A DNA stretch of 63,359 bases, counting the filler, from Bigelowiella natans CCMP2755 (lineage: Eukaryota; Protista; Cercozoa), in assembly GCA_000320545.1 (NCBI GenBank). It is 9 parts of 9 records of this genome, joined end to end, with 100 filler letters (N's around TTAATTAATTAA, not from the genome) between each part and the next. Parts side by side here need not be neighbours in the genome. Positions count along the whole stretch, not along the records: positions 40,654 to 52,182 come from ADNK01000991.1; 8 more parts are not named here. The stretch is one strand, 5' to 3'. A program made the translations under genes and the position numbers. Position 1 is the stretch's first letter, and the number at the start of each line of letters is the position of its first letter. Below are positions 8,098 to 47,557 of the stretch, piece after piece. A model generated the notes under the pieces. That model had not been told where the DNA came from, did no database searches, and worked only from the letters and a program-made list of their open reading frames with translations.

Positions 8098-8283
8098 GAG
8101 AAAGAGGGAGGCGTTAACTTTTAAATAACGTCGACCACCTTTATTTCAGCAACTATTATTAACACCAACACTACTACATCTTCCAGAAAATCACATCTTG
8201 TCCGTCTTCTCCTTCCTATTCTTTCTCTCCCTCCTTCTCAACATATTATATAAATACAAACATATACTTATATCTATATTCAG

Positions 8284-9590
8284 TGGACATCGTGCATTGG
8301 TCTACACTGAAATGCCTTCTACACTCTGCTGCGGAGGCGTTCCAGACGGCTGCCGACTCAAAGGTTGGTGGGAAAACCTGGATCGATACGGACTGGAAGA
8401 AGCTCCGGAATGAAGGCTATCTACCTGCTGCTCTCACCGCAATTGAGGCACTAAACCGATCAGGAGATGGAGGTTTAGAGACCGCCACCTTTTATCTAGC
8501 CTTGAGACAAGCTGCGGAGCTGTGCCGCGTATGCGAGGAGGGAATAGTTCGCGGTACATGCAGGGTGAACCTTTTGGACATGTACCGAATTCTGAACATT
8601 AAAGGGAATCCAAAAGAAGGAGGAGGAGGAGGAGGAGGAGACCAGAACAACATCTTGCCCTATCTTTCGAAGTTAGTGATGAGGATCCACACTGGTTTGT
8701 GCCGGTGCTTGCATAGTTTAGAACTTTCTGCTCAAAATTTTGTTACTCTTCACAAGCAGCTCTTCGAGCTCACGTCGCTACGACGCCTCGTTTTATCAAG
8801 AAACGCTCTCAAGAGTATTTCCCCATCTATTGGACGGCTGGAGTCTTTAGAGAATCTTGTTCTACTCAAAAACGAGATAGCATCGTTGCCCCCGGAAATT
8901 GGACAGCTCAAGAACCTCAGAAAGCTGAGCGCGGGTCTGAATAAGCTCATTTCACTACCAGGGGAGCTATCATCTCTTTCGAAACTAGAAACACTCGGGC
9001 TTACAGACAATCAGCTCACTTCTATTCCTAAAGAGATTGGGCAATTAAAGGAGCTAAAAAGGTTATTCGTATCTCGCAACAAACTCACAAGCCTTCCTTC
9101 GGAGATCAAGGGGCTTCAGCGTCTTGAATGGCTTGACATTAGTCTAAATCAGATTTCAATCCTCACACCTAACATCGGTCACCTAGTTTCTCTCCGCAGA
9201 CTCTGGTTGCATCATAATCAACTTACTACGCTTCCAAGAGAATTCAGCAATCTCACAAATCTGTCGGATCTGTATCTAAGGCCAAATCTAATTAAACGAC
9301 GGGCGCTTCCAGCGGAGCTTAATCGCATGCAAGTCCTAAAGAAAATATGGGTAAAGGAAGGTAATGTCAGCAACATCATGGCGGAGTTAAGGTTCAAAAA
9401 GATAATGAAGCCCAAGAAGAGCCCGGGACAGCGGAAAAGGTCTGTTGAAGGCAGGCTCGGCCGAAGCCAAGAATACAGCCTTTCTGTCGATTCCAAGAGT
9501 GGGGTTGTCGGGAGCAGAAGGACATCTCGCAGAAGTTCTCGAAGGACTTGGGAGAGAAAGGAGACACTGGTAGCATCCTTTCGCAATTAG
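8284..9590 (+). CDS. Leucine-rich repeat region (about 8 LRRs, LxxLxLxxNxLxxLP type); probably the last exon of the Clu gene
   Basis: ORF 8283-9590 with tandem LRRs; no upstream ATG of its own and it begins right after a pyrimidine-rich TTCAG acceptor. Confidence 0.85.
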
Positions 9591-10873: not shown

Positions 10874-11231
10874 TGTCAGCGGTCTGGCCGCGCCACCCAC
10901 GATCAAGGAGCTGTCGCAGCATGCGCACGTCCACTCGTGCTGCACGCTGCGCTGCGCACATGCGCATGGAAGTTCTCAGAACTTCCAGAATCTTCGAGAA
11001 CATTCCGGAAGCTTCGAGAACCTTCCAGAAACACTCGAGAGAATTCGAGAGAATTCTGGAAGATTCGAGAATCTTCGCGAATGCGCCGGAACCCAATGCG
11101 CACATGCGTGCAGCGCAAGTCACAAGTCATCATAAGAATCCAAAAGCACACGAGACCGCGTGTTGACTTTCCAACATCAACAGCACAGTCCCGCGCACAA
11201 AAGCCAAACAGCTACCGCAAGCCCGCTAAAA
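10874..11231 (+). repeat. 5' LTR of copia element
   Basis: Direct repeat of 17616-17973; starts TGTCAGCGG, ends CCGCTAAAA. Confidence 0.95.
10983..11081. promoter_or_regulatory. Heat-shock element (nGAAn) array in the copia 5' LTR
   Basis: TTCcaGAAtcTTCgaGAAcaTTCcgGAAgcTTCgaGAAccTTCcaGAA (10 perfectly phased units, 10983-11030) plus 6 more (11054-11081). Confidence 0.8.
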
Positions 11232-11242
11232 GGTTATGAGCC
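11232..11242 (+). promoter_or_regulatory. Primer-binding site complementary to the initiator tRNA-Met anticodon arm (half-tRNA priming)
   Basis: GGTTATGAGCC directly after the LTR is the reverse complement of GGCTCATAACC; same type as the Drosophila copia/Ty5 (hemivirus) PBS. Confidence 0.85.
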
Positions 11243-11417
11243 TCAAGAGGACTTGCTAGAGAACCAACAAAGAAAAGAACCAAGCAAACCCCCCACCCCC
11301 CCCCTTCAGCTACATCCTTCCAGAAGAAGGAACTGAAAGCGACAACAGCATTCCCTCAGCCAATCTTCGGTCAAGCCTCCAAAGCACTGAAAACAAAGAA
11401 AACAGGAACGAAACAAC

Positions 11418-14400
11418 ATGTCAGAAAAGCAGATAGACTCCCTGCTGAAAAACTTCACCCTCAAGTACGATGGTAGCAACTACAAGCCCTACATGTACAA
11501 GCTAATGTCCGCCTTTGAAGCAGCGGATTTGGAATCATGCTTCAATGTCAACATAGAAACAGAAGGAAAGGTGACAGAAGTCAATGTACGCACCGACCCC
11601 GCTCACCGACGAGAAGTACTCAAGCTCTCTCAGGAGCAATTCGACATCCTCAACCCTAAACCCGAAGGAAGAGGATCACAAGAAAAGATAAACAAAAGAA
11701 AGAGAGGAAGATTCTTCCTCACTGCTACCCTTCCTGATAAATTCTTCGATCTACTCGAAGGAAAACCCAAAGACGTAGCAGTTACCTTAGCAGCCTTGCT
11801 GGAGAAGTACGAGCCTACCAATCCTGTAGCCGTCAGGAAACTTTATTCGAAGCTAAGTGATATAAACATGGGTCAGTACAATGGAGACTTCACGAAGTAT
11901 CATTCTGACCTTGACTCGACGATCAGAAGACTTCGAGCACAGCACGAAGGATACTCCGACAATCAAGCTCTTACCACTCTACTTCGAGGACTTGTACCTA
12001 GAGAAAAATACGAGACTATAGTAACAGTCATTAACAACAAGAAAGATGTTACCTTCGACTCTGCAGTGGACATGATCCGCTCCCACATGAACTCCCGATC
12101 GTTAGATGACGGGCAGAAACCTTCAAAGAAACATGCAGGACACACCAGTGCAGAACACAAATACGTGAAGATGTACGATGGCTTGGAGAAAAGGCTAAAT
12201 GAACTTACGGGTCAGCTGAAGACCTACAAGAGGAAATTCAACAAAGGAAAGAACAGATACAACAGCGAAGCATATCAAGACAATTCCAAGAAGCAAAAGA
12301 GAGAAGACTATTTCTTGAACTTAAAGAAAAGAACAAAATGCCATTACTGTGGCAAGAAAGGACATTGGGAAAAGGAATGCAGAAACAAGATGAGAGACGA
12401 AGGCAAGCAGAACAAAGGAAAACACTATTCTTTTATAGATCATGGCTCCCCTTCCCAAAGACCCTCTTACATTAATAAGATGGCACGCGACAATTCTTAC
12501 CTGCACACGCTGAAGTACAACCATAAGCCTTTGATCCTTCTCGACAGCGGAGCCAACAACCACTTCTTCTGCGACCGCGACTTCTTCAACGAGTTGAAAC
12601 CTATTCAACCACGATACATAGAAGTTGGCAAAGATGGGACAGGATTCTTTGTGGATTATGCAGGCGACGTCGAACTAACTACGAAAAACAAGCAAGGAAA
12701 GATGCATAAAATTGTTCTACAAGGAGCTTTGTACTCTGAAGAAGCTGCAGGCAATGTGATTTCTCTAAACAGACTAGTTAAGAGTGGCAGCGAGTACAAA
12801 GGAACAAAACAAGGAATAAGCATTACCGCCAACGGAGAGGAATACGCGTTCGGGGACTTTCAAGACGACGGCCTATTTTATTTGAGATATAAACAAATAA
12901 ACAAAAGTACAAAAACACAAAGATTTAAATCCTACCCAATGAAACAGCCATCTTCAATCAAGCACGCACATAACATCCTAGGGCACATCGCAGCGGATAA
13001 GATAAGAGACACCTATGCAGTTACAGAAGGTTTACCTTATTCCAAGACGATAAAAATACCAAAGAAGATCTTTTGCAAGGCCTGTGATGTAGCCAAAACA
13101 AAAAGATCTCCGATCTTTGATCCAAGCGCCCAAGAAAGGATGAAACAGCATCGGAATAAAGCAAAGATTGAGGACGATGCTGTCAAAAAGAAGCAAAAAT
13201 GTGTACCTGTTATCCACAAGAAAAACCGGATGTGGAATAGAATTCACTCTGATGTAAAGACCATGCCTAACAGCATGGATGGTTACAAGTATTTCGTAAT
13301 ATTCGTACATGAAGGAACAAGGTGGGTTACCTTGGAGCTCATGAGAAAGAAAAGCGAAGTTACGCAGAAAACCATACAGTTCCTAAAGCACATCAGAAAG
13401 CTTCCAGGTTGTGGAAGCATAGACGAATTCAGATCGGATGGTGGAGGTGAATATATGAGCGCAAAGCTACATAGCTGGCTCACCTCCGAAGGAATAAAAT
13501 GGGTTCCTAGCACCGCCCGAACACCTGAGCAAAATGGAATGTCCGAGCGTCACATACAGACTATCATGGCGAAAACAAGAGCTATGTTAGAACATGCACG
13601 CTTACCGGTCGGATACTGGTCCTACGCAGCTCAGACTGCAGCATATCTCCACAACGTCACCTCACATCGCAGCACACCTGGTAGAAAAACGCCTAAAGAA
13701 CTACTGCACCATGAGCAACCAAATCTAAAGAATCTAACTACCTGGGGATGCATCGGAGTAAACCACATCGACAAGGAACTCCGACCTGCAGGTGGTATGG
13801 GTGCTAGAGGTGAATACGTACGTATGTTGGGATATGACGATAGATTTGGTACTTTTCTCGTCGCCACGAAGACGCTGAAAATTAGAAGAGTCCGTGTAAC
13901 TAAATGGTACCACACAGTGTTTAAGTTTCCTTCGCTGAAGAGAAACAAAGTTAGTGATTCGGCTTTGGCGTACCTTTATCCAGAAGGTCCTGCCGACGCG
14001 GACGCCCCCGAACCATCCAGTGCAACTGACGAGTTGCCAGAGGATGGTGGGCCTGAAACAAAAGCAAAAAGTAAACCTCGAAGGTCGAATAGAGAAAATA
14101 GGGGAGTACCTGGTATTCGTTACGGAATACTTGGTAGCTATTACGACCGCCTGATGAACATAAAAGCTCCATCAGTACAAGAGATCGAGGACCTTCCTAA
14201 GACGTATGACGATGCAATCACAGGAGATGATAAGAAGCATTGGATACCTTCTACGGAAGAGGAACTGCACCAGCTTCGAAAACTTGGAACGTTTACGCTG
14301 GTAGTGCGACCTAAGGATACAAATTTAGTTACATCTAAATGGGTATTCAAGAAGAAAATAAATGTAGACTATACCATTCGGTATAAGTCAAGGCTGGTCG

Positions 14401-15860
14401 CGCGAGGGTTCACGCAGATCCCGGGAGAAGACTTCTTCTTCTCTTATTCCCCGACGTTGTCCCTAAATAGTTTTCGGATAATGTTAGCCATAGCATCTAT
14501 CCTCAAGCTAAAACTACACGGGATAGATATACTTACAGCTTTCCTAACTGGAAAGATGGACTGTAAAGTACACATGGAAATACCTAAAGGGTGGAAGCCG
14601 AAGACACCTGAGGAAATCCGGCTATACAACAGTGGCCTTCCACTAGCCCTACTGGTAAACAAAAGCATTTATGGGCTGACACAAGCAAGTGCAATATTCA
14701 GCCTTACCTTGCTCGAGCATCTCAACGCCATTGGCTTCGTCCAGCTTTATTCCGATCCTTGCCTAATGATAATGCACAGACAAGGAAGAATCATCATATT
14801 GTCATGTTTCGTGGATGACATATGCATAGCATATCAAGATAAGAGAGACCTGGACTTTGTCATGAAGCGAATAGGCGACAAGTTTGAGTTTCGCGATGAA
14901 GGCGAGCTAAAGAAAACACTGGGCATAAGAGTTGGTAGCGACAATGAGGGAAACTATTGGATATCGCAGGAAGACTACCTCACCAGACTCGCCCAGAAGT
15001 ATGATATCACGCCTACGAAAAGAGCAAAAACACCAATGATAACAGGATCGAAGTTAGACGAATACGAGGAGCATGATAAGGTGGATCAAAAGGCATACAG
15101 ATCCATCATAGGAGCTGCAATGTATGCAGCTGTGGCTACTAGACCAGACATATGCTACACTCTATCTCGTCTAGCTTCCTACAGTCAAGATCCTAGAACT
15201 ATACACTACATCGCTGCAGTACGCTTACTGCAGTATCTGGTCAATACAAAGGATAAAAGAATTACCTTTAAAGCAGCGTCCAAACCTGAGCTTAAAGCTT
15301 ACGTCGATGCCTCCTGGAAAACCTGCAAGAAAACGGGTAAATCATACTCAGGATATTTCATATCGCTAAGCAACGCACCTGTTGTCTGGAAGAGCAACAA
15401 GCAAAAGGTCGTTGCTATGTCCAGTGGCGAGGCTGAGTACATAGCACTATCAGATATATGCAGAGAGTTAGTGTATGTCACTCAGTTACTACAGGAGTTA
15501 AAGATGAAGATACCGAAACCTGTACCTGTGTATTGTGACTCTCAAGCAGCTATCTCCATTGCAGCCAAGCCTGGATTCACACAAAAAGGCAAGAACATAA
15601 GGATAGAATATCACAATGTTCGTGATAACTATCAAACTAAGCAGATCTGCATAAACAAAATACCTGGGGAGGACAATCCCGCTGATATACTTACTAAGGC
15701 TCTACCAGGACCTAGCAACAAGAAACACTGTGATTTCTTGTTCCCTATATCATACAGAGAAAAACTAACCATCATGCTACAAGGCACCAGAAAAAGAAAA
15801 ATAACTACAAAGACTCTACCTTACAAGCTCCCTCGCCTTGTCGGCCCCACGTCCGCTTAG
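11418..15860 (+). CDS. Copia Gag-Pol polyprotein (Gag-PR-IN-RT-RH), 1480 aa
   Basis: Zn knuckle CHYCGKKGHWEKEC; protease LLDSGANNH; IN H..H/C..C, IHSDV, RSDGGGEY, QNGMSER; RT KSRLVARGFTQ, KSIYGL, FVDD; RNase H YVDASW, SSGEAEY, CDSQAAI, NPADILTKAL; copia domain order. Confidence 0.98.
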   Translation: MSEKQIDSLLKNFTLKYDGSNYKPYMYKLMSAFEAADLESCFNVNIETEGKVTEVNVRTDPAHRREVLKLSQEQFDILNPKPEGRGSQEKINKRKRGRFFLTATLPDKFFDLLEGKPKDVAVTLAALLEKYEPTNPVAVRKLYSKLSDINMGQYNGDFTKYHSDLDSTIRRLRAQHEGYSDNQALTTLLRGLVPREKYETIVTVINNKKDVTFDSAVDMIRSHMNSRSLDDGQKPSKKHAGHTSAEHKYVKMYDGLEKRLNELTGQLKTYKRKFNKGKNRYNSEAYQDNSKKQKREDYFLNLKKRTKCHYCGKKGHWEKECRNKMRDEGKQNKGKHYSFIDHGSPSQRPSYINKMARDNSYLHTLKYNHKPLILLDSGANNHFFCDRDFFNELKPIQPRYIEVGKDGTGFFVDYAGDVELTTKNKQGKMHKIVLQGALYSEEAAGNVISLNRLVKSGSEYKGTKQGISITANGEEYAFGDFQDDGLFYLRYKQINKSTKTQRFKSYPMKQPSSIKHAHNILGHIAADKIRDTYAVTEGLPYSKTIKIPKKIFCKACDVAKTKRSPIFDPSAQERMKQHRNKAKIEDDAVKKKQKCVPVIHKKNRMWNRIHSDVKTMPNSMDGYKYFVIFVHEGTRWVTLELMRKKSEVTQKTIQFLKHIRKLPGCGSIDEFRSDGGGEYMSAKLHSWLTSEGIKWVPSTARTPEQNGMSERHIQTIMAKTRAMLEHARLPVGYWSYAAQTAAYLHNVTSHRSTPGRKTPKELLHHEQPNLKNLTTWGCIGVNHIDKELRPAGGMGARGEYVRMLGYDDRFGTFLVATKTLKIRRVRVTKWYHTVFKFPSLKRNKVSDSALAYLYPEGPADADAPEPSSATDELPEDGGPETKAKSKPRRSNRENRGVPGIRYGILGSYYDRLMNIKAPSVQEIEDLPKTYDDAITGDDKKHWIPSTEEELHQLRKLGTFTLVVRPKDTNLVTSKWVFKKKINVDYTIRYKSRLVARGFTQIPGEDFFFSYSPTLSLNSFRIMLAIASILKLKLHGIDILTAFLTGKMDCKVHMEIPKGWKPKTPEEIRLYNSGLPLALLVNKSIYGLTQASAIFSLTLLEHLNAIGFVQLYSDPCLMIMHRQGRIIILSCFVDDICIAYQDKRDLDFVMKRIGDKFEFRDEGELKKTLGIRVGSDNEGNYWISQEDYLTRLAQKYDITPTKRAKTPMITGSKLDEYEEHDKVDQKAYRSIIGAAMYAAVATRPDICYTLSRLASYSQDPRTIHYIAAVRLLQYLVNTKDKRITFKAASKPELKAYVDASWKTCKKTGKSYSGYFISLSNAPVVWKSNKQKVVAMSSGEAEYIALSDICRELVYVTQLLQELKMKIPKPVPVYCDSQAAISIAAKPGFTQKGKNIRIEYHNVRDNYQTKQICINKIPGEDNPADILTKALPGPSNKKHCDFLFPISYREKLTIMLQGTRKRKITTKTLPYKLPRLVGPTSA

Positions 15861-17615
15861 TCGCCCTATGAAAGCCCCACGTCCATTTAGAAACCTACAA
15901 CATATAAACATATAGGCTGCAAGGTTTTAATGGCACACATCTTTGTATGTGTGTACCTTTCCTTGCGTATCTTGCTATGGACTATATGCACAGTGTCTTC
16001 CAGACACTCTCGCTATCATGGGGGCGAATGTAGAATACGCTATAGATTTCTATATGATTGCACAGTGTCTTCCAGACACTGCACAATCATGGGGGCGGAT
16101 ATAATAATGAAGACGAGATACCTAGTGTATAACAAATACGAAGTCAAATATAAGGAGAGAACATGCAAAAGCTGTATACTACAAGATACCTACGAAGTTA
16201 ACAAAAGGAAAAACGATCGCCTGGAGATCCACACAATTATCGGTATTATATTGGAAGTGGCGAGGCATCTGCTGTGGCTCCTATGTACAATGGCCACAAT
16301 AAAGAAATGCAGAGACCGCAACAAAGCAGCATGGGTAATATAGCGATTTCTAAGGCACGTGAACTTGAGTCTCCATACAGGGTTAACGGATCGTCCACAG
16401 CATGACTACCAAGGAGGGCCTATTCACAAAGACAACCAAATAGTTACGCAGAGAAATGGCTATCACAGATCCAGGCCGGTCGAAGCGGTGAATATTCATT
16501 ATGAGGAAGTTAGCGCCCCTTATGGTGCTCAGTGATGACTCATTATTATATAAATAATTCAATAACCGTCGTTATAGCTTTCCGGTAAGAGAATCCTCGC
16601 TCCCCCCTTCATGGAAGCAGGCAGAAGGGGAATCTATCACAATGAGGGTTCTGGCACAAAAGGTTATCATGGCAAGGACACCGATAGATCGAAATTGGCC
16701 GCACCTTATGAGACAAAATCGCGCCTACAGGGCGAAGCATACTTGGGGTCGAACGTTCGGGACCAGGCAAGAGCAGCGGTCCCTCAACAAAGCTTTGAGG
16801 GGGCTCCTCCACCCCCCCTTCCTCGTCATATCACTAACGAAACAGCTAGTATTAGCTTAGTCTCACAAAAACGCAGCAACAATCTGGAATCTTTCTGGAA
16901 CTTTCATGGGCATCAGAAACAACCCTTCAAAGTAGACCGCCGTAGCCATCACAACGCAAACAGCAGCAGCAGTAGTGACAGTGTAAGTGACAGAGATGGC
17001 ATCAAACAGCAACGATCAAACCAGAAGGGTCGTGCTGCTCGTACTGCTGATGACGAAAAACAGAAGAAGAAGAAGAAGGAGGAAAGGACTACTTGCACTA
17101 CCCACCTGTCTACCTACCTACCGAGCCTTGGTCAACACCGCATGTGGGTGCAGGTGACGAACGTAGGGCATTCCGGAATTTTTCTGGAATCTTTCTGGAA
17201 GTGCCCAGGGGATTCCAGAATTTTTTCTGGAAGTGCACCAGTGTCGCAGAAAAATTCTTTTCTGGAAGCACACTGGTGTCGTTCAAAAAAAATTAATTTT
17301 TTGGACAAGTCCCAGTTCGTACCGAAATGGTGGCACCTTGCCCAGTCAGGCAAGAATTTTTCCTGCCGATTTCGGAGTGCACCATGCCCATGGCACCTTG
17401 CCCAGTTGCAAGCCTGGGAATTTTGTGCCTCTGCACAGAGTTTTTGGGCGTCTGGTGGTGCGATGTTTGGTCGGCAAAACATTGCCAACCATTCGGACTC
17501 CGAAACCTTTGGGAATGGCGTCCATGTGCAGCACCGTGCAAAAGTTCTGTCACCATGGCAGAAATGGCACGTGCACATCAGCACTCTGATCGTGGTCACC
17601 ACGTCCATGGGGGCG

Positions 17616-17973
17616 TGTCAGCGGTCTGGCCGCGCCACCCACGATCAAGGAGCTGTCGCAGCATGCGCACGTCCACTCGTGCTGCACGCTGCGCTGCGCA
17701 CATGCGCATGGAAGTTCTCAGAACTTCCAGAATCTTCGAGAACATTCCGGAAGCTTCGAGAACCTTCCAGAAACACTCGAGAGAATTCGAGAGAATTCTG
17801 GAAGATTCGAGAATCTTCGCGAATGCGCCGGAACCCAATGCGCACATGCGTGCAGCGCAAGTCACAAGTCATCATAAGAATCCAAAAGCACACGAGACCG
17901 CGTGTTGACTTTCCAACATCAACAGCACAGTCCCGCGCACAAAAGCCAAACAGCTACCGCTAGTCCGCTAAAA
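17616..17973 (+). repeat. 3' LTR of copia element (same HSE array at 17725-17823)
   Basis: Direct repeat of the 5' LTR, followed by the TSD CAGAT. Confidence 0.95.
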
Positions 17974-41075: not shown

Positions 41076-41760
41076 ACAGAGTGATTCTTATTCGTTCTCT
41101 GCACGCTTTCAGACCAGAGGGCATCCTCCGACAGCAGGAAATGACTATAATAAATTTTGTTTTTTACATGCGACAACAAAAATATTCTGTCGTAACAATA
41201 ATTGTGCGAACTCAGGCCGTAGAACACGTGCTCTTGTAGTTTTTTGACAGGGTTCTGCCTTAAAGATTGATGCGGATTTTGTGAGGATGATGAGATTTTT
41301 ACATTACGACAACAAATATTACATGTCGATATGCAAAAATATGTCTCGAATTAGGAGACTTTAAGAACCGATGAGAACATTTTGTCCGTCCATTGCCCAA
41401 ATTCCACAATGGCCCCTACGGCCCTCCCAGCTCTCTCCATAGCTCTCTGCACTTCGCTTCAGTGACGCTAGGCGTTGAACAGTTTCGTAAGATGGAATAC
41501 GACATTTCTAGGTAGGTAGCCACATTGCCCCCCGACTCATTCGAACAATGATGCACAAATCACGGACGAACACGTTGTCCAGACGTGCACACGTCTGGAT
41601 GCAAACAGAAGCTTGTGCATGGACCGTGGCTCAGCGAAACCGCACTGAGACAGAGATCGAGCTTTCTTTTTTTCTTGCAAATTGTCAAGACGCGGCTCGT
41701 CGTGATGCTCACTTCCATTGTTGGAATGCACAGAATCTCACGGATCAGTGACACCGCACC

Positions 41761-42086
41761 TGTAGCGCGTACCACTACGCGGGCACAAGTCACGTGCGAC
41801 AACAAAGGGGTTGTCGCGGATATAGAATATAGATAACGTAGATATTAATACAGCATAGGCACGTGGGTTCCGGCGGGACTCATGGCAGCACACCGGAAGT
41901 GTGCTGCCCCACGTGCGGCGGCATTCGCGAAAGCTTCGCGAATGATTACGCAGTGCACGATTTAATAAAAATATAATCTTTAATAAAAATAAACACAACT
42001 CTTCAAAAGGAAGCAAACGTGCCTTTCCCCCCCCCTGCCTACTTGTGCACGTAGCGCCTCGGCCTGTGAACACCTTACGCGCAACA
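41761..42086 (+). repeat. 5' LTR of gypsy-like element
   Basis: TGTAGCGCGT...ACGCGCAACA (9/10 terminal inverted repeat); identical to 45325-45650. Confidence 0.95.
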
Positions 42087-42091
42087 ACCTT

Positions 42092-42109
42092 TGGCTTCCA
42101 CACACGGGA
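42092..42109 (+). promoter_or_regulatory. Primer-binding site (tRNA 3' end complement, Glu/Asp-like)
   Basis: TGG-initiated 18-mer 5 nt after the LTR; its reverse complement TCCCGTGTGTGGAAGCCA resembles a tRNA 3' end. tRNA identity is uncertain. Confidence 0.65.
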
Positions 42110-42125
42110 AACGATTTGACTAACA

Positions 42126-43568
42126 ATGTCACAGCAGCTAGAAGAACAGCAGGACTTTGGCTCGCAGGCCGTGCAAGGGCACGAGCAGAAACAGGAAAGG
42201 AAGGGCGATACGGACGCTAAGGAAGGAGGAGGAACACCTCCACAGGCACCGCCGGGACCAGCACCCGGGATTAAGAAAGCAGATGCAGCAGCAGAGGCAC
42301 TGGAGAACTTCTACGAGGCGGACGACGAGGACGTGGCCGCCGAAAGCAAGAAGGTCGTAATGGCATTACGAGCCTTGCGACCCAGGGCGAGCAACTACGC
42401 CAAACTGAAAGTATCGATAGAATACAAGTATCAGACACATGATGTTTGGGCAGCTATCATGCAGGACATCATGGATTACGAAGCAGACTTACCTCCAGAG
42501 TGGGCAGCTTTGTTTAGGAACGACGGGGGTCTGGGCGCCTCGCGGGGGACGACCCAGAGCACCGTCAAGCAGCAGCAGCCGGTACAGCGGAACACCCAGT
42601 TCATGTCTGTTAAAACAGCACCGGTTATGATAACGAAATACAACGGGAAAAGAGGTGAGGCAAGGAGGTGGTGGAAGAACGCTAGGAGTATACTCTGCGA
42701 CTTTACCCCTAACCCCACCGAAAACGACAAGCTCAAATGGCTAGCTATAATAAAGCAAGCCATGGACCTTTACGAGACAGGCAGGACCCGGATCAGGCAG
42801 CTAGAGAAAATACACACTACAGTTAGTGGGCTACGAGACGTTGAGGCGATAATGAAGGCTTTTGTAAATGAACAGGATGCTAACTCCCTACCCCAGGCTA
42901 TTAGAAAATACAGAGCAATGATGCAGCATGAGAGAGAACCTGTTAGAGACTTTGCCACGCGCTTCCAGGATATGATCGACGAACTACATGATTTTAATTA
43001 CAACACAGGTGATGATCAGGCAAGGTTTGAAGAGTTCAAGTTAAAGATAAAGGAATCCACTTACGTTACGGAGAAAGGCTACACCACGATGGAGGCAGCA
43101 GTGCAGGCTATATCCCTACGCGAGCAGGAGCAGGACCGCAAGTTTACCAGCCCTAAGGTACCTGGCATAGGAAACATTAACGCTATTAAGCCGCAGCGAG
43201 ACTGGTACAAGGACAGGGAAGGTAACCGACGTTGCGGATACTGCTCACGTAAAGGGAAACACACCGCTAAAGACTGCAGAGACAGGAAAGAAGGACGACC
43301 CAGGATGACGATCAGGCAGCTCAACGAACACTACGAGAAGTTAAAGAGAAAGAAAGGCAGAGGACAAGGATATAACAACAGCAAATGGCAAGGCAGCAAC
43401 AACGGGAAGAACAATAAATATAAGAACAAAAAGCAGAACAGTATCAATGCTATACAGCAGCAGATAAACGGAATATTAGATCACCTTAAGCAGGCGCCGA
43501 CGAAGACAGCAGTACCAGCAACGCAGGACCAAGACAAGCCCATGACCCTAGACGACATAAGAACTTAG
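42126..43568 (+). CDS. Gag-like protein, 480 aa
   Basis: KYNGKRGEARRWW, QHEREPVRDFATRF (gypsy Gag motif Q..E.V..F..RF), Zn knuckle CGYCSRKGKHTAKDC. Confidence 0.88.
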   Translation: MSQQLEEQQDFGSQAVQGHEQKQERKGDTDAKEGGGTPPQAPPGPAPGIKKADAAAEALENFYEADDEDVAAESKKVVMALRALRPRASNYAKLKVSIEYKYQTHDVWAAIMQDIMDYEADLPPEWAALFRNDGGLGASRGTTQSTVKQQQPVQRNTQFMSVKTAPVMITKYNGKRGEARRWWKNARSILCDFTPNPTENDKLKWLAIIKQAMDLYETGRTRIRQLEKIHTTVSGLRDVEAIMKAFVNEQDANSLPQAIRKYRAMMQHEREPVRDFATRFQDMIDELHDFNYNTGDDQARFEEFKLKIKESTYVTEKGYTTMEAAVQAISLREQEQDRKFTSPKVPGIGNINAIKPQRDWYKDREGNRRCGYCSRKGKHTAKDCRDRKEGRPRMTIRQLNEHYEKLKRKKGRGQGYNNSKWQGSNNGKNNKYKNKKQNSINAIQQQINGILDHLKQAPTKTAVPATQDQDKPMTLDDIRT

Positions 43569-44041
43569 GAGTATGCAACATTAATGACGAAGACGCTAAC
43601 AGGACTATCAAAGTTGCTATGACCAAGGTTAAAGTTAAAGACAGCTACGGAGACTACAAGAAACTACCTGCCCTTTGGGATAGTGGCAGCATGCCGAAGT
43701 CCTTCATAAGCCTAAGCACAGTAAGAAGGTTAGGACTATTGGATCAAGTGACTAAGAAAGAACGTAAATATGCTCAAGCAGACGGAAGCTCTTCCATGAA
43801 GACCGTCGGTGAGCTAATGCTAAAGCTACAGATACCTGGCAGCGACGCGGAGACCCAAATCAAGACCCGAGTAGCCATGACTTTATCCATGGAACTACTC
43901 CTCGGACAGGATGCCCTAGAAAAATTAGGGGGGATCATATCATTCTACAATCACAAGATATACTTTGCTAAGTTGCCAAAGAAGTCAGGCAGGACCATCA
44001 GCCAGAACATGATACGGCTTGACGAGTGGACCTCAGGGTGA
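43490..44041 (+). CDS. Retroviral-type aspartic protease (in the -1 frame, overlapping gag)
   Basis: ALWDSGS active site, QADGS flap, LLLGQDAL motif; frame is open from 43490, first ATG at 43619. Confidence 0.9.
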   Translation, partial: AGADEDSSTSNAGPRQAHDPRRHKNLGVCNINDEDANRTIKVAMTKVKVKDSYGDYKKLPALWDSGSMPKSFISLSTVRRLGLLDQVTKKERKYAQADGSSSMKTVGELMLKLQIPGSDAETQIKTRVAMTLSMELLLGQDALEKLGGIISFYNHKIYFAKLPKKSGRTISQNMIRLDEWTSG

Positions 44042-45273
44042 ACGACGATTGGCGCTACTGGCCCTACAAGCTAAAAGAGATAAGGACATACCTGCGTGGC
44101 TGCAGGTGCTCCAGCTTGAAGGCGGCAGGCGTCGCCACCAAGGAGTCCAGCAAGAGCCGTGCATCTAAGAAAATCAAAGCAAGGAACTTCTTAGATATCG
44201 TGCAAATTGATGTTTATAAGTACGATGGCTATCACTACCTTACCTTCGTTGATGTGGCCACTGGAAAGTGCTGGGTTAAAAAGATTATCAAGGTCAACGT
44301 TGCTAAGAAGAACAAAGGCTTATATAAGCAGAGGCTTACTAACTGCTACCGTACCTGGGAGTCTGAGCTCCAGGCTATCCCTGATGAAGTTAGCATAAAC
44401 AAGATACCAAAGAAGTTACATGTGGATAATGAGACCTCTCTTCTACAGCTACCACACCCTAATATTGATGCCTCACCTGTATACTATGCCCAGTCCAACT
44501 CCAAGGTAGAGCGACTCCACCGCACCTTGGCCAACCTAAGCAGGATAAATAGCACCACACCAGACAAGATACAAGGGTTAGTAAACGACACCTTCACGTC
44601 TGGGGGAGGTATCAAGGATAAGGAGAGGGAAGAAGGCGACGACAACGACGACGATACCGAGAGCGAAGACGAGAAGGTCCCGTACGATGGCCGAGTTCTA
44701 AAGGAAGGACAGTATGTTAGGGCCAAGGTAAATCTGAGATCGAGAAATAAACAAGACCCCTTCTGGGGTGGCGTTGCAAAGGTTACCGAGAGGAAGGGGA
44801 GGAAGCAGTACTACATCTATGATGGGAACAGGGTCACCTTGCGCCACATCAGTCACCTAAAGAATTATGATATCGGTGAGAAGCTCCTAGAGGATGTTAA
44901 AGTAAACCCTACTGTGTGGGAGCGAGCAATGCCTTGTTTAGGACCCCGACCTAAGTTCGATGTGGAATATGGAAACAATAAGGTCAGGGTGAACGACGAT
45001 TGGCGCATGAAGATTGTCTATCTAGGCTACCCTGGATTACGAAATATGGAGAGGGTAGCTATGAAAATAAAGGACGGAAAATATCAGCTACTCTACCTAG
45101 CTGTTCCCGACTTACCCTTTGAGCACTGGTATAAGGTCCTGGGGGACCTTGATGCAGAGGGCTGGTATGGACACGAACCTAAGGACGAAGGTGAGTTCTG
45201 GGTAAGCGACAAAGGAGATAAGGTTAGAGAGGAATCTATTACCTGGTGGTTGGTGAAGTTCCGAAAGCGATGA
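44026..45273 (+). CDS. Integrase (truncated Zn finger, DDE core, GPY/F-like region) with a C-terminal methyltransferase-like domain
   Basis: YWP...CRC, IVQID, LTFVDVAT, HVDN, QSNSKVERLHRTL; C-terminal 44890-45273 resembles Dam-type MT domains. Confidence 0.8.
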   Translation: MDLRVNDDWRYWPYKLKEIRTYLRGCRCSSLKAAGVATKESSKSRASKKIKARNFLDIVQIDVYKYDGYHYLTFVDVATGKCWVKKIIKVNVAKKNKGLYKQRLTNCYRTWESELQAIPDEVSINKIPKKLHVDNETSLLQLPHPNIDASPVYYAQSNSKVERLHRTLANLSRINSTTPDKIQGLVNDTFTSGGGIKDKEREEGDDNDDDTESEDEKVPYDGRVLKEGQYVRAKVNLRSRNKQDPFWGGVAKVTERKGRKQYYIYDGNRVTLRHISHLKNYDIGEKLLEDVKVNPTVWERAMPCLGPRPKFDVEYGNNKVRVNDDWRMKIVYLGYPGLRNMERVAMKIKDGKYQLLYLAVPDLPFEHWYKVLGDLDAEGWYGHEPKDEGEFWVSDKGDKVREESITWWLVKFRKR

Positions 45274-45324
45274 AGGTCTAAGGGAATAAGGAAGGAAGGA
45301 AGGAGCAACGTGACTTGGGGGAGG

Positions 45325-45650
45325 TGTAGCGCGTACCACTACGCGGGCACAAGTCACGTGCGACAACAAAGGGGTTGTCGCGGATATAGAATATAGATAA
45401 CGTAGATATTAATACAGCATAGGCACGTGGGTTCCGGCGGGACTCATGGCAGCACACCGGAAGTGTGCTGCCCCACGTGCGGCGGCATTCGCGAAAGCTT
45501 CGCGAATGATTACGCAGTGCACGATTTAATAAAAATATAATCTTTAATAAAAATAAACACAACTCTTCAAAAGGAAGCAAACGTGCCTTTCCCCCCCCCT
45601 GCCTACTTGTGCACGTAGCGCCTCGGCCTGTGAACACCTTACGCGCAACA
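45325..45650 (+). repeat. 3' LTR of gypsy-like element
   Basis: Identical to the 5' LTR; preceded by the PPT, followed by CACC. Confidence 0.95.
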
Positions 45651-45730
45651 CACCTGGACGTGCACACGCATGCACATCTGCGTCCACACGTCACACGCAG
45701 TGCCATCCATGTGCACATGCACACAAGCGT

Positions 45731-45768
<38 letters not shown>

Positions 45769-46333
45769 CCGGCATGGAAGAACAATGATGTGCGGGGGCG
45801 AGCACAGCTAGACGACAGGGACTCAAAGTCCACACAAGTGCACACGCACAGGGACTCAAAGTCCATGTACGAGTATAAACGAGGATCGGATGTTCTGTGT
45901 TGTGTGTGCGAGCTAGCAGCCACATTTCTAGATTTGTGTGGTGGCTGTACGATGCGAGTTTCTTAGTTTTACATGCGATGCGCGCGCTAGATTTGTGCGC
46001 TGTTCGCTAGCTGCGCTGCAGCAACATCTACATGTGTACAGATGCAGGATTGCACATTTAGCAGAATCTGCCTGCCTTTTACACATTTGAGCATTTTCGT
46101 GGTATTTTCGTGGCATTTTCGTGAACATAATACCATGAAAAATTCGCGAAATTTTCGAAATGACAAGCAATTTTATTTCAACGTGCATGTACAATCCACT
46201 CTAGCATCGCCAGCGTACACATAACGACTAATAAGATTCCCGTTCTTCTGCAGCTGATCCCCACACAAATTACAACAGTCGTGAGTAACTGACTCAAAAT
46301 TACCTACTCACAAGTCCCTTTTGAAGTGGAAGA

Positions 46334-46492
46334 TCAATGCTCGCCATCGTGGATTGCCTTCTTAATCTGCTGCACTGCCCGACCTGGGTTTAGACCCTTG
46401 GGGCAAGTGTTGGTGCAGTTGAAGATGGTCTTACATCTATAGAGCTTAAAACTGTCATCTAAATTTTCCAACCGTGCCTGGGTATCACCTAG

Positions 46493-46527
<35 letters not shown>

Positions 46528-46593
46528 AATATACTTGTGTATGTGGGTGTGTATTTTTTACAGATACTACTTTTCTATTCTACTTGCTTTAAG

Positions 46594-46636
<43 letters not shown>

Positions 46637-47557
46637 AGATGAAAGGTATATTTAAACAGTCAGTGATATTTTAAGCTCCTAGTAGATTACCATCACGACT
46701 GTCAGCAATCCAGCGATAGGCTTGCATGAGCACAGCAGGGCCTAAATATTTGTCTCCATTCCACCAATAACTTGGACAGGAAGTGCTACAACAGGCACAT
46801 AGGATACACTCGTACATCCCGTCCAGAAGCTTGCGATCCTCCTTAGTTTGCAGATACTCCCCATCCCTAAAATTTGTACACCCAGAACCAAATTTATCGG
46901 TGCATGGATTCGCAAGAGGGGTACTTAACTTCGAAAATTACTACGATGCAAGGGATTTAAAAGTAATTAAAGTTGGGTATATTACTGGGCCTTTGGAGAA
47001 CTCTCGGCCGGCTGTAACCATGGCTTGATCGACTTGTACTGCTGATAGAAGTTGTTGAGGTCTGGAACGAGATCCTTGATGACCTCCATGTGAGGAAGTG
47101 GATAAATTTTTGTAGGCTTTCCGTTGTCTTCGATCTTGGACAGGCACGCAAGGTTGTTTCCCCCGTCAATATTCATCGCGCAGGAGCCGCAGATACCTTT
47201 TTGATAAAAGAAATGGGATAATACCCGCATGCATTGTGATTTGTGAGTTCCGATACGCATGAAAATATATTGCCTACCCTCACGACAAGATCGGCGGAAA
47301 GTGAGCGTTGGATCAACTTCGTTCTTGATCTTGATTAGGGCGTCAAGAACCATAGGTCCGCACTCCTTGAGGTCGAGGTCGTAGGATTGCATTTTTGGCT
47401 CTCCTCCTTCATCCGGGTTCCAACGATAAATTTCAAATGTTTTCGTAGACATAGCTCGCCTATAGAATGACGGACGCGGGGCTCCGTTTCTGGCCACTGC
47501 TCTCATTCCTCCCACCAGCCTCTTGCTGAAGGTTGTGGAAAGGAGGGACGCCATCAT
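46334..47557 (-). CDS. SDHB: Succinate dehydrogenase iron-sulfur subunit (complex II), multi-exon
   Basis: Mitochondrial-type leader, [78 protein letters not shown]. Confidence 0.97.

What the first reader, a model, noticed from the sequence alone, without database searches (positions are those of the whole stretch)
44890..45273. Integrase C-terminus carries a degenerate Dam-like (N6-adenine) methyltransferase domain
Seen: after the IN core and GPY/F-like region the ORF reads DVKVNPTVWERAMPCLGPRPKFDVEYGNN...NDDWRMKIVYLGYPGLRNMERVAMKIK...LYLAVPDLPFEHWYKVL...FW...ITWWLVKF. Known: the MT domain of DIRS retrotransposons and phage Dam-like enzymes runs W.L.P.VF..L...GP..(I/V)DLFA..N ... W....(Y/W).NPPF..I.RVL.K.....LIVP.WP...WW..L. 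The order and spacing match, but NPPF appears as GYPG and DLFA as DVEY. Inference: a DDE-integrase LTR element has captured an adenine MTase, probably catalytically dead, in the slot where chromoviruses carry a chromodomain. It may act as a DNA/6mA reader that directs integration.
Basis: partly seen in the sequence, partly recalled or inferred. Interest (0 to 1): 0.78.

Follow-up and report, generated by a model that had tools for sequence, protein, structure and literature searches.

The report
Dead methyltransferase tail on retrotransposon integrase
A young, internally deleted jumping gene of a marine alga ends its integrase in a domain predicted to have the fold of phage and DIRS adenine methyltransferases but without their catalytic motif, a variant of a design first reported in a 2026 preprint, and it likely serves as a binding arm rather than an enzyme.

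Summary
The last 129 residues of the integrase frame (44884-45273) belong to a conserved family: 37 relatives at 29-43% identity; the longest ones scanned are Ty3/Gypsy Pol proteins. A model built from the family alone (pLDDT 97) matches phage N6-adenine methyltransferases (Foldseek E down to 4e-6), and the family profile matches DIRS MT domains above all shuffles. Loss of activity looks lineage-wide, not decay: 0 of 34 members have [NDS]PP (NPPF aligns with YPGL) and the SAM-loop region is 17 residues shorter than in DIRS. The domain sits at a fixed distance behind the SH3-like module and is mostly acidic, so I read it as a pseudo-enzyme tether of integrase; a 6mA-reader role is untested and less favoured. 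This copy is defective: 1845 nt (RT, RNase H) are replaced by a 20-nt filler, plus a frameshift. The host is very probably Bigelowiella natans. DAM-carrying LTR elements were described in a May 2026 preprint, and this scan noted them, degenerate ones included, on other DNA. New here: a Pfam-invisible, NPP-less lineage with D-27-E integrase. Side findings: 17 antisense introns, and TpA-edited copies.

The parts
41757..41760 (+). 5' copy of the 4-bp target-site duplication (CACC)
41761..42086 (+). 5' LTR, 326 bp, TG...CA, identical to the 3' LTR
42092..42114 (+). Primer-binding-site-like stretch starting TGG, 5 nt behind the LTR; the tRNA was not identified
   Evidence: sequence; no tRNA gene in the window
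42126..43568 (+). gag frame with a CCHC-type knuckle; ends early in this copy because one base is missing after 43558
   Evidence: Pfam Retrotrans_gag only E 0.35; an extra A in runs X1, X5, X9, X13; fused gag-protease in P0014, P0017-P0020
43490..44041 (+). Aspartic protease frame (DSG at 43679-43687)
   Evidence: Pfam gag-asp_proteas E 1.1e-4, below the curated cut-off
44035..44054 (+). 20-nt filler that stands where full-length copies have 1845 nt (RT, RNase H, first half of the integrase zinc finger); it equals 44986-45005 inside the methyltransferase-like domain (23-nt exact repeat 44033/44984)
   Evidence: RT and RNase H pieces in same-genome models P0001, P0004, P0018, P0091
44209..44511 (+). 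Integrase catalytic core, D (44209), D (44425), E (44509); only 27 residues between the second D and E
   Evidence: D2 and E conserved in 11 of 12 relatives aligned (one does not reach them); spacing 27 in 10 and 26 in 1
44677..44883 (+). SH3/GPY-F-like module of integrase
   Evidence: 45% mean identity in 12 of 12 relatives; weak profile match to the SH3-like ribosomal protein eL21, E 0.0067; the GPY/F label is recalled
44884..45273 (+). DIRS/Dam-type methyltransferase-fold domain, 129 aa, last domain of Pol; motif-I Asp at 44959, motif-IV equivalent Y-P-G-L at 45028-45039
45276..45324 (+). Purine-rich tract before the 3' LTR (polypurine-tract-like)
   Evidence: sequence
45325..45650 (+). 3' LTR
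45651..45654 (+). 3' copy of the target-site duplication (CACC)
42405..45242 (-). 17 spliced introns (16 GT-AG, 1 GC-AG) on the antisense strand of this element family; three fall in or at the edge of the methyltransferase-like domain; the joined exons have stops in every frame
   Evidence: five junctions match gaps in MMETSP proteins P0010, P0094-P0096. The RNA may come from other copies.

Best explanation
The last domain of this Gypsy element's integrase is a conserved domain predicted to have the DIRS/Dam adenine-methyltransferase fold, which lacks the NPP catalytic motif and likely works as a non-enzymatic tether that holds the integration complex on a host partner. Shown: the element type, the place of the domain, its conservation across a lineage, the loss of NPP, the shortened SAM loop, and the fixed junction to the SH3-like module. 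Predicted: the fold. Inferred steps: (1) an ancestral Gypsy element took the domain from a DIRS-type element; (2) it lost SAM binding and catalysis but stayed under selection; (3) it remains on mature integrase as a rigid SH3-plus-pseudo-methyltransferase unit at the end of a flexible linker; (4) it binds a basic host chromatin protein, more probably than naked DNA, and so biases or assists integration. The window copy itself cannot make this protein and was either moved by full-length sisters or damaged while being copied.
For: Fold: model from 38 family sequences only, pLDDT 97.1, pTM 0.89. It has 15 BFVD matches at E<=0.001, of which 5 are named N-6-adenine methyltransferases, 1 a methyltransferase and 1 a WW-domain protein, TM 0.59-0.66. 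The best solved chain is PCIF1, Z 6.8, rmsd 3.5, 115 aligned. An independent Atlas model of relative P0048 finds Dam and PCIF1 clusters at TM 0.58-0.66. Origin: the profile is closer to DIRS MT (33.5, 84 columns) than to a phage Dam set (17.5, 51 columns); the RT of 4 relatives groups with Gypsy apart from 14 DIRS, 100/100. Inactive: 0 of 34 have [NDS]PP. The distance from motif-I Asp to motif IV is 19-24 residues (mode 22, n=26), against 38-41 in 53 of 53 DIRS domains and mostly 31-35 in phage Dam. Under constraint: mean identity 34% in 12 of 12 relatives, against 16% for the linker and 44-45% for the core and SH3; invariant P75, W82, W121. Rigid unit: the SH3-to-domain junction is 21 residues in 25 of 26, while the core-to-SH3 linker runs 50-155. 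Protein rather than DNA partner: net acidic in 20 of 30 members, hairpin region acidic in 26 of 37. Iyer et al. (PMC4738411, passages) already call DIRS MT domains likely inactive and suggest binding roles.
Against: No ligand or partner was shown, and no insertion-site bias was measured; one insertion site says nothing. The structural scores against solved chains are modest: no PDB match at E<=0.001, and Z 6.8 is under the 8 that the tool calls clear. The window's own domain has net charge 0, and the helix after the motif is basic in 25 of 34 members, so nucleic-acid binding stays open. Net charge is a crude proxy, and some acidity may come from K-to-E editing in hypermutated copies. The domain tree leaves the donor unresolved, with the family on a long stem. 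The motif-I Asp (25 of 32) and a nearby Asn (24 of 33) are kept, which could mean a residual cofactor site.
Confidence: 0.42

Rival explanations
1. The dead domain reads DNA, possibly 6mA-marked, in its old base-flipping pocket and steers integration to such chromatin.
For: It sits where targeting domains sit in Gypsy integrases (recalled). An aromatic residue holds the place of the catalytic Asn in 25 of 33 relatives, and 7 of the other 8 are tyrosine-poor sequences that look edited. Many Trp residues are conserved. The preprint links DAM-LTRs to AMT1 hosts and 6mA.
Against: The family is net acidic. I found no 6mA or AMT1 data for this host. The preprint's link concerns NPP-bearing domains.
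Confidence: 0.2
2. The domain binds the element's own RNA or the RNA-DNA intermediate inside the particle, helping packaging or reverse transcription.
For: The nearest solved structure is PCIF1, a cap-adjacent RNA adenine methyltransferase. Iyer et al. propose binding of template transcripts for DIRS MT.
Against: The surface is acidic on balance, and the fixed coupling is to the integrase tail, not to RT or RNase H.
Confidence: 0.13
3. The domain is only a structural part of the integrase oligomer and makes up for the shortened D-27-E core.
For: The core is unusually short across the lineage, and the junction is invariant.
Against: The linker from the core is long and variable. Conserved residues cluster at the old active-site loops.
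Confidence: 0.1
4. The domain is still an active methyltransferase with a non-canonical motif, or completes an active site with a partner.
For: The fold is intact, the motif-I Asp is kept, and G-[YF]-P-G is strongly conserved.
Against: There is no N/D/S in motif IV in 34 of 34, and the SAM-binding segment is about 17 residues shorter than in DIRS. Even NPP-bearing DAMs gave no activity in E. coli in the preprint.
Confidence: 0.08
5. The domain counters the host's adenine-editing defence, by shielding TpA sites or acting as a decoy for the deaminase.
For: B. natans hypermutates TpA in foreign DNA (preprint 10.64898/2026.01.13.699255, passages). A copy of this element, P0025, has 16 of 18 differences explained by TpA edits where only 26 of 114 residues are editable; P0033 and P0037 have 0 tyrosines in 1243 and 670 residues.
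Against: Copies are edited although the family has the domain. There is no direct link, and the hosts of most relatives are unknown.
Confidence: 0.07

Closest known systems
DAM-LTR retrotransposons (Fernandez-Moreno et al., bioRxiv 10.64898/2026.05.21.726589; whole main text read, supplements and figures not seen)
   Same: Ty3/Gypsy LTR element with a DDE integrase and a DIRS-type DAM-fold domain in Pol.
   Different: Their DAMs were found by HMM at E 1e-5 and keep the Asn-Pro-Pro triplet. This lineage has no such triplet, a shortened SAM loop and no significant Pfam Dam hit. Their five lineages are from green algae, an ochrophyte, ichthyosporeans, Pyropia and Euglena; Bigelowiella, Rhizaria and chlorarachniophytes are not named in the main text.
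MT domain of DIRS1-like tyrosine-recombinase retrotransposons (PMC2685390 and PMC4738411, passages)
   Same: Last domain of the RT-containing protein; 84 profile columns align; an aromatic residue often replaces the catalytic Asn (FPP in 45 of 53 of my motif-selected set); proposed to be inactive.
   Different: Here it follows a DDE integrase in an element with direct LTRs, a protease and a target-site duplication. It lacks about 17 residues of the SAM loop, has Gly for the second Pro, and has a different, acidic C-terminal hairpin.
Phage DNA N6-adenine methyltransferases (Pfam PF05869 Dam, such as phage T1 Dam) and PCIF1/CAPAM
   Same: Same predicted fold, TM about 0.55-0.66.
   Different: 7-16% identity, no NPP[YF], and no pairwise BLAST signal with T1 Dam.
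Chromoviruses (Gypsy integrase with GPY/F module and chromodomain; recalled, also mentioned in the DAM-LTR preprint)
   Same: An extra domain at the end of integrase, behind an SH3/GPY-F-like module.
   Different: The extra domain is a methyltransferase fold; targeting by it is not shown.

Membership tests
Ty3/Gypsy LTR retrotransposon | Direct LTRs (TG...CA), target-site duplication, PBS and PPT | tested here: met
   PBS tRNA not identified
Ty3/Gypsy LTR retrotransposon | Order PR-RT-RH-IN and a Gypsy-type RT | tested here: met
   Met in relatives P0059, P0077, P0090 and in pieces of same-genome models; RT-RH is deleted in the window copy
Ty3/Gypsy LTR retrotransposon | Integrase with H2C2 finger and DDE triad | tested here: met
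   H2C2 weak in full copies (E 7e-4); DDE conserved but spaced D-27-E; Pfam rve does not hit
DAM-LTR (2026 preprint) | DAM-fold domain inside an LTR element's Pol | tested here: met
DAM-LTR (2026 preprint) | DAM domain found by HMM at E<=1e-5 (I assume Pfam PF05869; the main text does not name the model) | tested here: not met
   No hit up to E 1 for the window; 1 of 30 relatives scanned hits at E 0.032
DAM-LTR (2026 preprint) | Conserved Asn-Pro-Pro catalytic triplet | tested here: not met
   0 of 34
DAM-LTR (2026 preprint) | Falls within one of the five named lineages | not testable with these tools
DAM-LTR (2026 preprint) | Host encodes AMT1; copies enriched in 6mA | not testable with these tools
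   No genome held; no paper found
DIRS1-like retrotransposon | Tyrosine recombinase, inverted or split repeats, no protease or DDE integrase | tested here: not met
DIRS-type MT domain | Profile homology to DIRS MT, closer than to phage Dam | tested here: met
   the tree does not resolve the donor
Active N6-adenine methyltransferase | Motif IV [NDS]PP[YFW] and a full SAM-binding loop | tested here: not met
Active N6-adenine methyltransferase | SAM binding and methyl transfer | not testable with these tools
   needs biochemistry
Chromovirus | Chromodomain at the integrase C-terminus | tested here: not met
   The frame ends with the methyltransferase-fold domain, leaving no room; no chromo hit

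The most novel reading that the evidence does not exclude
A whole unrecorded Gypsy lineage of marine protists, marked by a D-27-E integrase, has turned a captured adenine methyltransferase into a new class of integrase targeting domain: a pseudo-enzyme reader of adenine-marked chromatin or of the host's adenine-editing machinery. Its hosts include an alga that attacks these very elements by TpA hypermutation.
Probability: 0.2. Interest if true: 0.75.

Novelty: new variant of a known kind. Interest (0 to 1): 0.4.

Why it matters
The 2026 preprint argues that LTR elements keep DAM domains to write 6mA, but it could not show activity. This lineage kept the domain under constraint after losing both the catalytic motif and much of the SAM loop. 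That points to a non-catalytic reason for keeping it, and suggests that HMM screens undercount such elements. The family is young and multi-copy in a cultured, sequenced alga, so an insertion-site map and a binding assay could test directly whether a pseudo-methyltransferase can target integration.

Tried and rejected
Single-sequence searches found no methyltransferase: Pfam, PDB sequences (weak collagenase rows only), ESM Atlas, PHROGs, tblastn of phages (best E 0.6), BLAST against T1 Dam. The single-sequence model was unusable (pLDDT 38.5) and its fold search gave nothing at E<=0.001. No related locus in viral contigs. No whole genome is held, so copy number, insertion sites, AMT1 and intact-NPP sisters in the genome could not be examined. 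A search for relatives with the same integrase but an intact NPP (34 hits among 7996 scored candidates) added 3 family members, none with NPP; the search is word-limited and seeded on NPP-less sequences, so it is weak evidence. The domain tree (14 of 25 family, 16 of 53 DIRS, 12 of 68 phage rows) did not resolve the donor. Alignment A1 placed the first residue apart from the rest; the model was still confident. Rejected: the two apparent frameshifts as programmed events (both are lesions of this copy); the 23-nt repeat as a functional signal (it is junction filler); decay of the motif in this copy (it is family-wide); a protein-coding antisense gene (stops in all frames, longest open run 114 codons within the internal exons; exons within the deleted 1845 nt were not seen). 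One RNA joint (44147-44239) was left out of the intron count, and withheld 4 joints. Lack of cover on the flanks in runs X1, X5, X9 and X13 is noted but proves nothing by itself.

Full report
The element. The finding lies at the end of a 416-codon open frame, 44023-45273, inside an LTR element of 3890 bp. The two 326-bp LTRs are identical (41761-42086 and 45325-45650, TG...CA) and are flanked by a 4-bp duplication, CACC. Between them lie gag, an aspartic protease (Pfam E 1.1e-4) and the integrase frame, each in a different phase, with no RT. Proteins identical to the frame come from JGI 'Bigna1' models, and EukProt names that set Bigelowiella natans, a chlorarachniophyte. The window is therefore very probably from that alga. 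No genome was available.

This copy is defective. Runs X1, X5 and X9 each hold one 5420-nt contig of the element. Compared with the window, these have one more base after 43558 and a long stretch in place of 44035-44054, given as 1845 letters for X5 and X9. The lengths add up to a 5390-nt unit and to a single frame of 1657 codons if the missing part is open. Same-genome models show gag fused to the protease, followed by RT, RNase H and the H2C2 finger. The 20 nt at the junction copy 44986-45005. This looks like a template switch (inference); an assembly error is not excluded.

The domain is a family. An exhaustive phmmer search of 1.84 billion representatives gave 46 hits. I set aside 9 near-identical or partial copies and aligned the other 37 (29-43% identity) with the window domain (A1). 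Of 30 scanned with Pfam, the longest carry protease, RT, RNase H or H2C2 hits, and one has a faint Dam hit (E 0.032). Of 30 looked up, two are other B. natans models and one is an MMETSP transcript; the rest are from metagenome or run assemblies, one of them filed under a bacterial bin. The RT of 4 relatives groups with 3 ordinary Gypsy RTs apart from 14 DIRS RTs (100/100; the tool warns that long branches meet). The domain is the last one in all 14 protein ends checked; in P0037, which I trimmed, the gene model runs on past it.

It is a DIRS/Dam-type methyltransferase fold. (a) The family-only model has pLDDT 97.1. Foldseek gives 15 viral matches at E<=0.001, led by an unnamed protein (4e-6) and phage N6-adenine methyltransferases. 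In the PDB nothing reaches E 0.001, but the first rows are methyltransferases, PCIF1 among them. VIA-align ranks PCIF1 first (Z 6.8, rmsd 3.5, 115 aligned; 16 of 48,161 chains at Z>=5, none at 8), and most of the 50 rows listed are titled methyltransferases. The Atlas's own model of P0048 finds Dam and PCIF1 clusters, all under its naming bar. (b) I collected 117 loci by a DIRS-motif pattern, kept 68 complete and then 53 non-redundant domains, and checked 14 loci: most carry RT and a tyrosine recombinase, and 8 have weak Pfam Dam hits. Their HMM ranks the window domain first of 418 targets (10.6 bits; shuffle maximum 4.6). Profile against profile gives 33.5 over 84 columns, with 0 of 100 shuffles as high and the reversed control at 11.8. 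With the selected motif masked the score is 26.5, again 0 of 100. A set of 68 phage Dams scores only 17.5. Each line is moderate, but they agree and the fold search used no Dam sequence.

It is probably not an enzyme. NPPF aligns with Y49-P-G-L. None of 34 members that cover the motif has [NDS]PP; position 49 is Y in 20, F in 5 and W in 1. Seven of the 8 C/H/R variants are in tyrosine-poor sequences that look hypermutated, so the intact state is G-[YF]-P-G. The motif-I Asp survives (25 of 32), but only about 22 residues separate it from motif IV, against 39 in DIRS and 31-35 in most phage enzymes. The lost stretch covers the loop that binds SAM in this fold (established knowledge, recalled). 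Yet the domain is kept: 34% mean identity, against 16% in the linker and 44-45% in the core and SH3 module.

How it may work. The junction from the SH3-like module is 21 residues in 25 of 26 sequences, whereas the linker from the core varies from 50 to 155. That suggests a rigid two-domain unit that stays on integrase and can reach away from the core, as targeting domains do (inference). The domain is net acidic in 20 of 30 members, against 8 of 53 DIRS and 20 of 68 phage domains, which fits a basic protein partner better than DNA. Against this, the window's own domain is neutral, the helix after the motif is basic in 25 of 34, and editing can add acidic residues. I put the protein-tether reading at 0.42, with the 6mA-reader, RNA-binding, structural, active-enzyme and anti-editing readings as rivals. 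I put the homology itself near 0.95 and inactivity near 0.85. No binding was tested.

What is known. The preprint 10.64898/2026.05.21.726589 (whole main text; supplements, figures and references not seen) reports DAM domains in five LTR lineages, with NPP conserved and no activity in E. coli. Its main text does not name Bigelowiella or Rhizaria. Its supplementary tables may list the species; its screen used EukProt at E 1e-5, which would likely miss this domain (inference). Iyer et al. (PMC4738411, passages and 6 supplement passages) call DIRS MT domains likely inactive binders related to PCIF1. PMC5890265 and PMC2685390 were seen as passages. Searches listed no paper on this lineage, judged from titles and abstract openings; the library is incomplete. 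Earlier notes of this scan (unchecked) report degenerate DAM-LTRs and DAM behind integrase in other genomes; a sequence look-up found no look-alike of this family. I had found the preprint before these look-ups.

Side findings. RNA runs X15-X18 and run X13 show 17 distinct joints that are GT-AG or GC-AG introns on the minus strand; five match gaps in MMETSP proteins. The joined exons are not coding. The A-rich sense strand makes acceptor-like sites common on the antisense strand, here and in the window's Copia element alike, so this may be passive splicing of antisense RNA. Copies of the family bear the TpA hypermutation described for this host (preprint 10.64898/2026.01.13.699255, 12 of 14 passages): 16 of 18 differences in P0025, and no tyrosine in P0033 or P0037. 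The window copy is unedited (TpA ratio 1.03).

Verdict. The design is a variant of a kind described in 2026, and this copy is defective. The lineage-wide loss of catalysis with continued conservation is the part worth following. Interest 0.40.

Noticed in passing
window 42405-45242, minus strand: 17 antisense introns (56-165 nt, mean 105) are spliced across gag, protease, integrase and the C-terminal domain in four marine metatranscriptomes and one further run; five also show in MMETSP proteins. The joined exons have stops in all frames.
   Followed up: partly
P0025, P0033, P0037; P0053-P0056, P0061: Copies and relatives carry the TpA-to-TpG/CpA signature (16 of 18 changes in P0025; zero tyrosines in P0033, P0037, P0055, P0056). 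This extends the host's reported editing defence to this retrotransposon family and hints that some unnamed hosts share it.
   Followed up: partly
window 44425-44511: The integrase core has 27 residues between the second Asp and the Glu across the lineage, against the usual 35 (recalled); Pfam rve misses it.
   Followed up: partly
runs X1-X14: 14 runs with 12 organism labels in 6 studies hold 92-94% of the element's words. In the four laid, the element is 99+% identical but the flanks are not covered, and X13, guessed to be DNA, holds spliced forms. Carry-over of an abundant RNA or presence in other hosts; unexplained.
   Followed up: partly
window 10874-17960: A second element, Ty1/Copia, with an intact 1489-codon frame (RVT_2, rve) and identical 345-nt repeats; no methyltransferase-like domain scored in it.
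   Followed up: partly
window 46099-47605, minus strand: A spliced gene that reads like the succinate dehydrogenase iron-sulfur subunit (name recalled from the sequence); its RNA ends about 450 nt from the element's 3' LTR.
   Followed up: no
P0011, P0012, P0021-P0023: Gene models that fuse pieces of this element to unrelated host exons, suggesting insertions in or beside genes.
   Followed up: no
window 8163-9590: A long leucine-rich-repeat frame just upstream of the Copia element.
   Followed up: no
P0064, P0065, P0088, P0092: A deeper branch of the family with S-F-P-[LF] at the motif and a longer C-terminal hairpin; it may be closest to the ancestral state.
   Followed up: no
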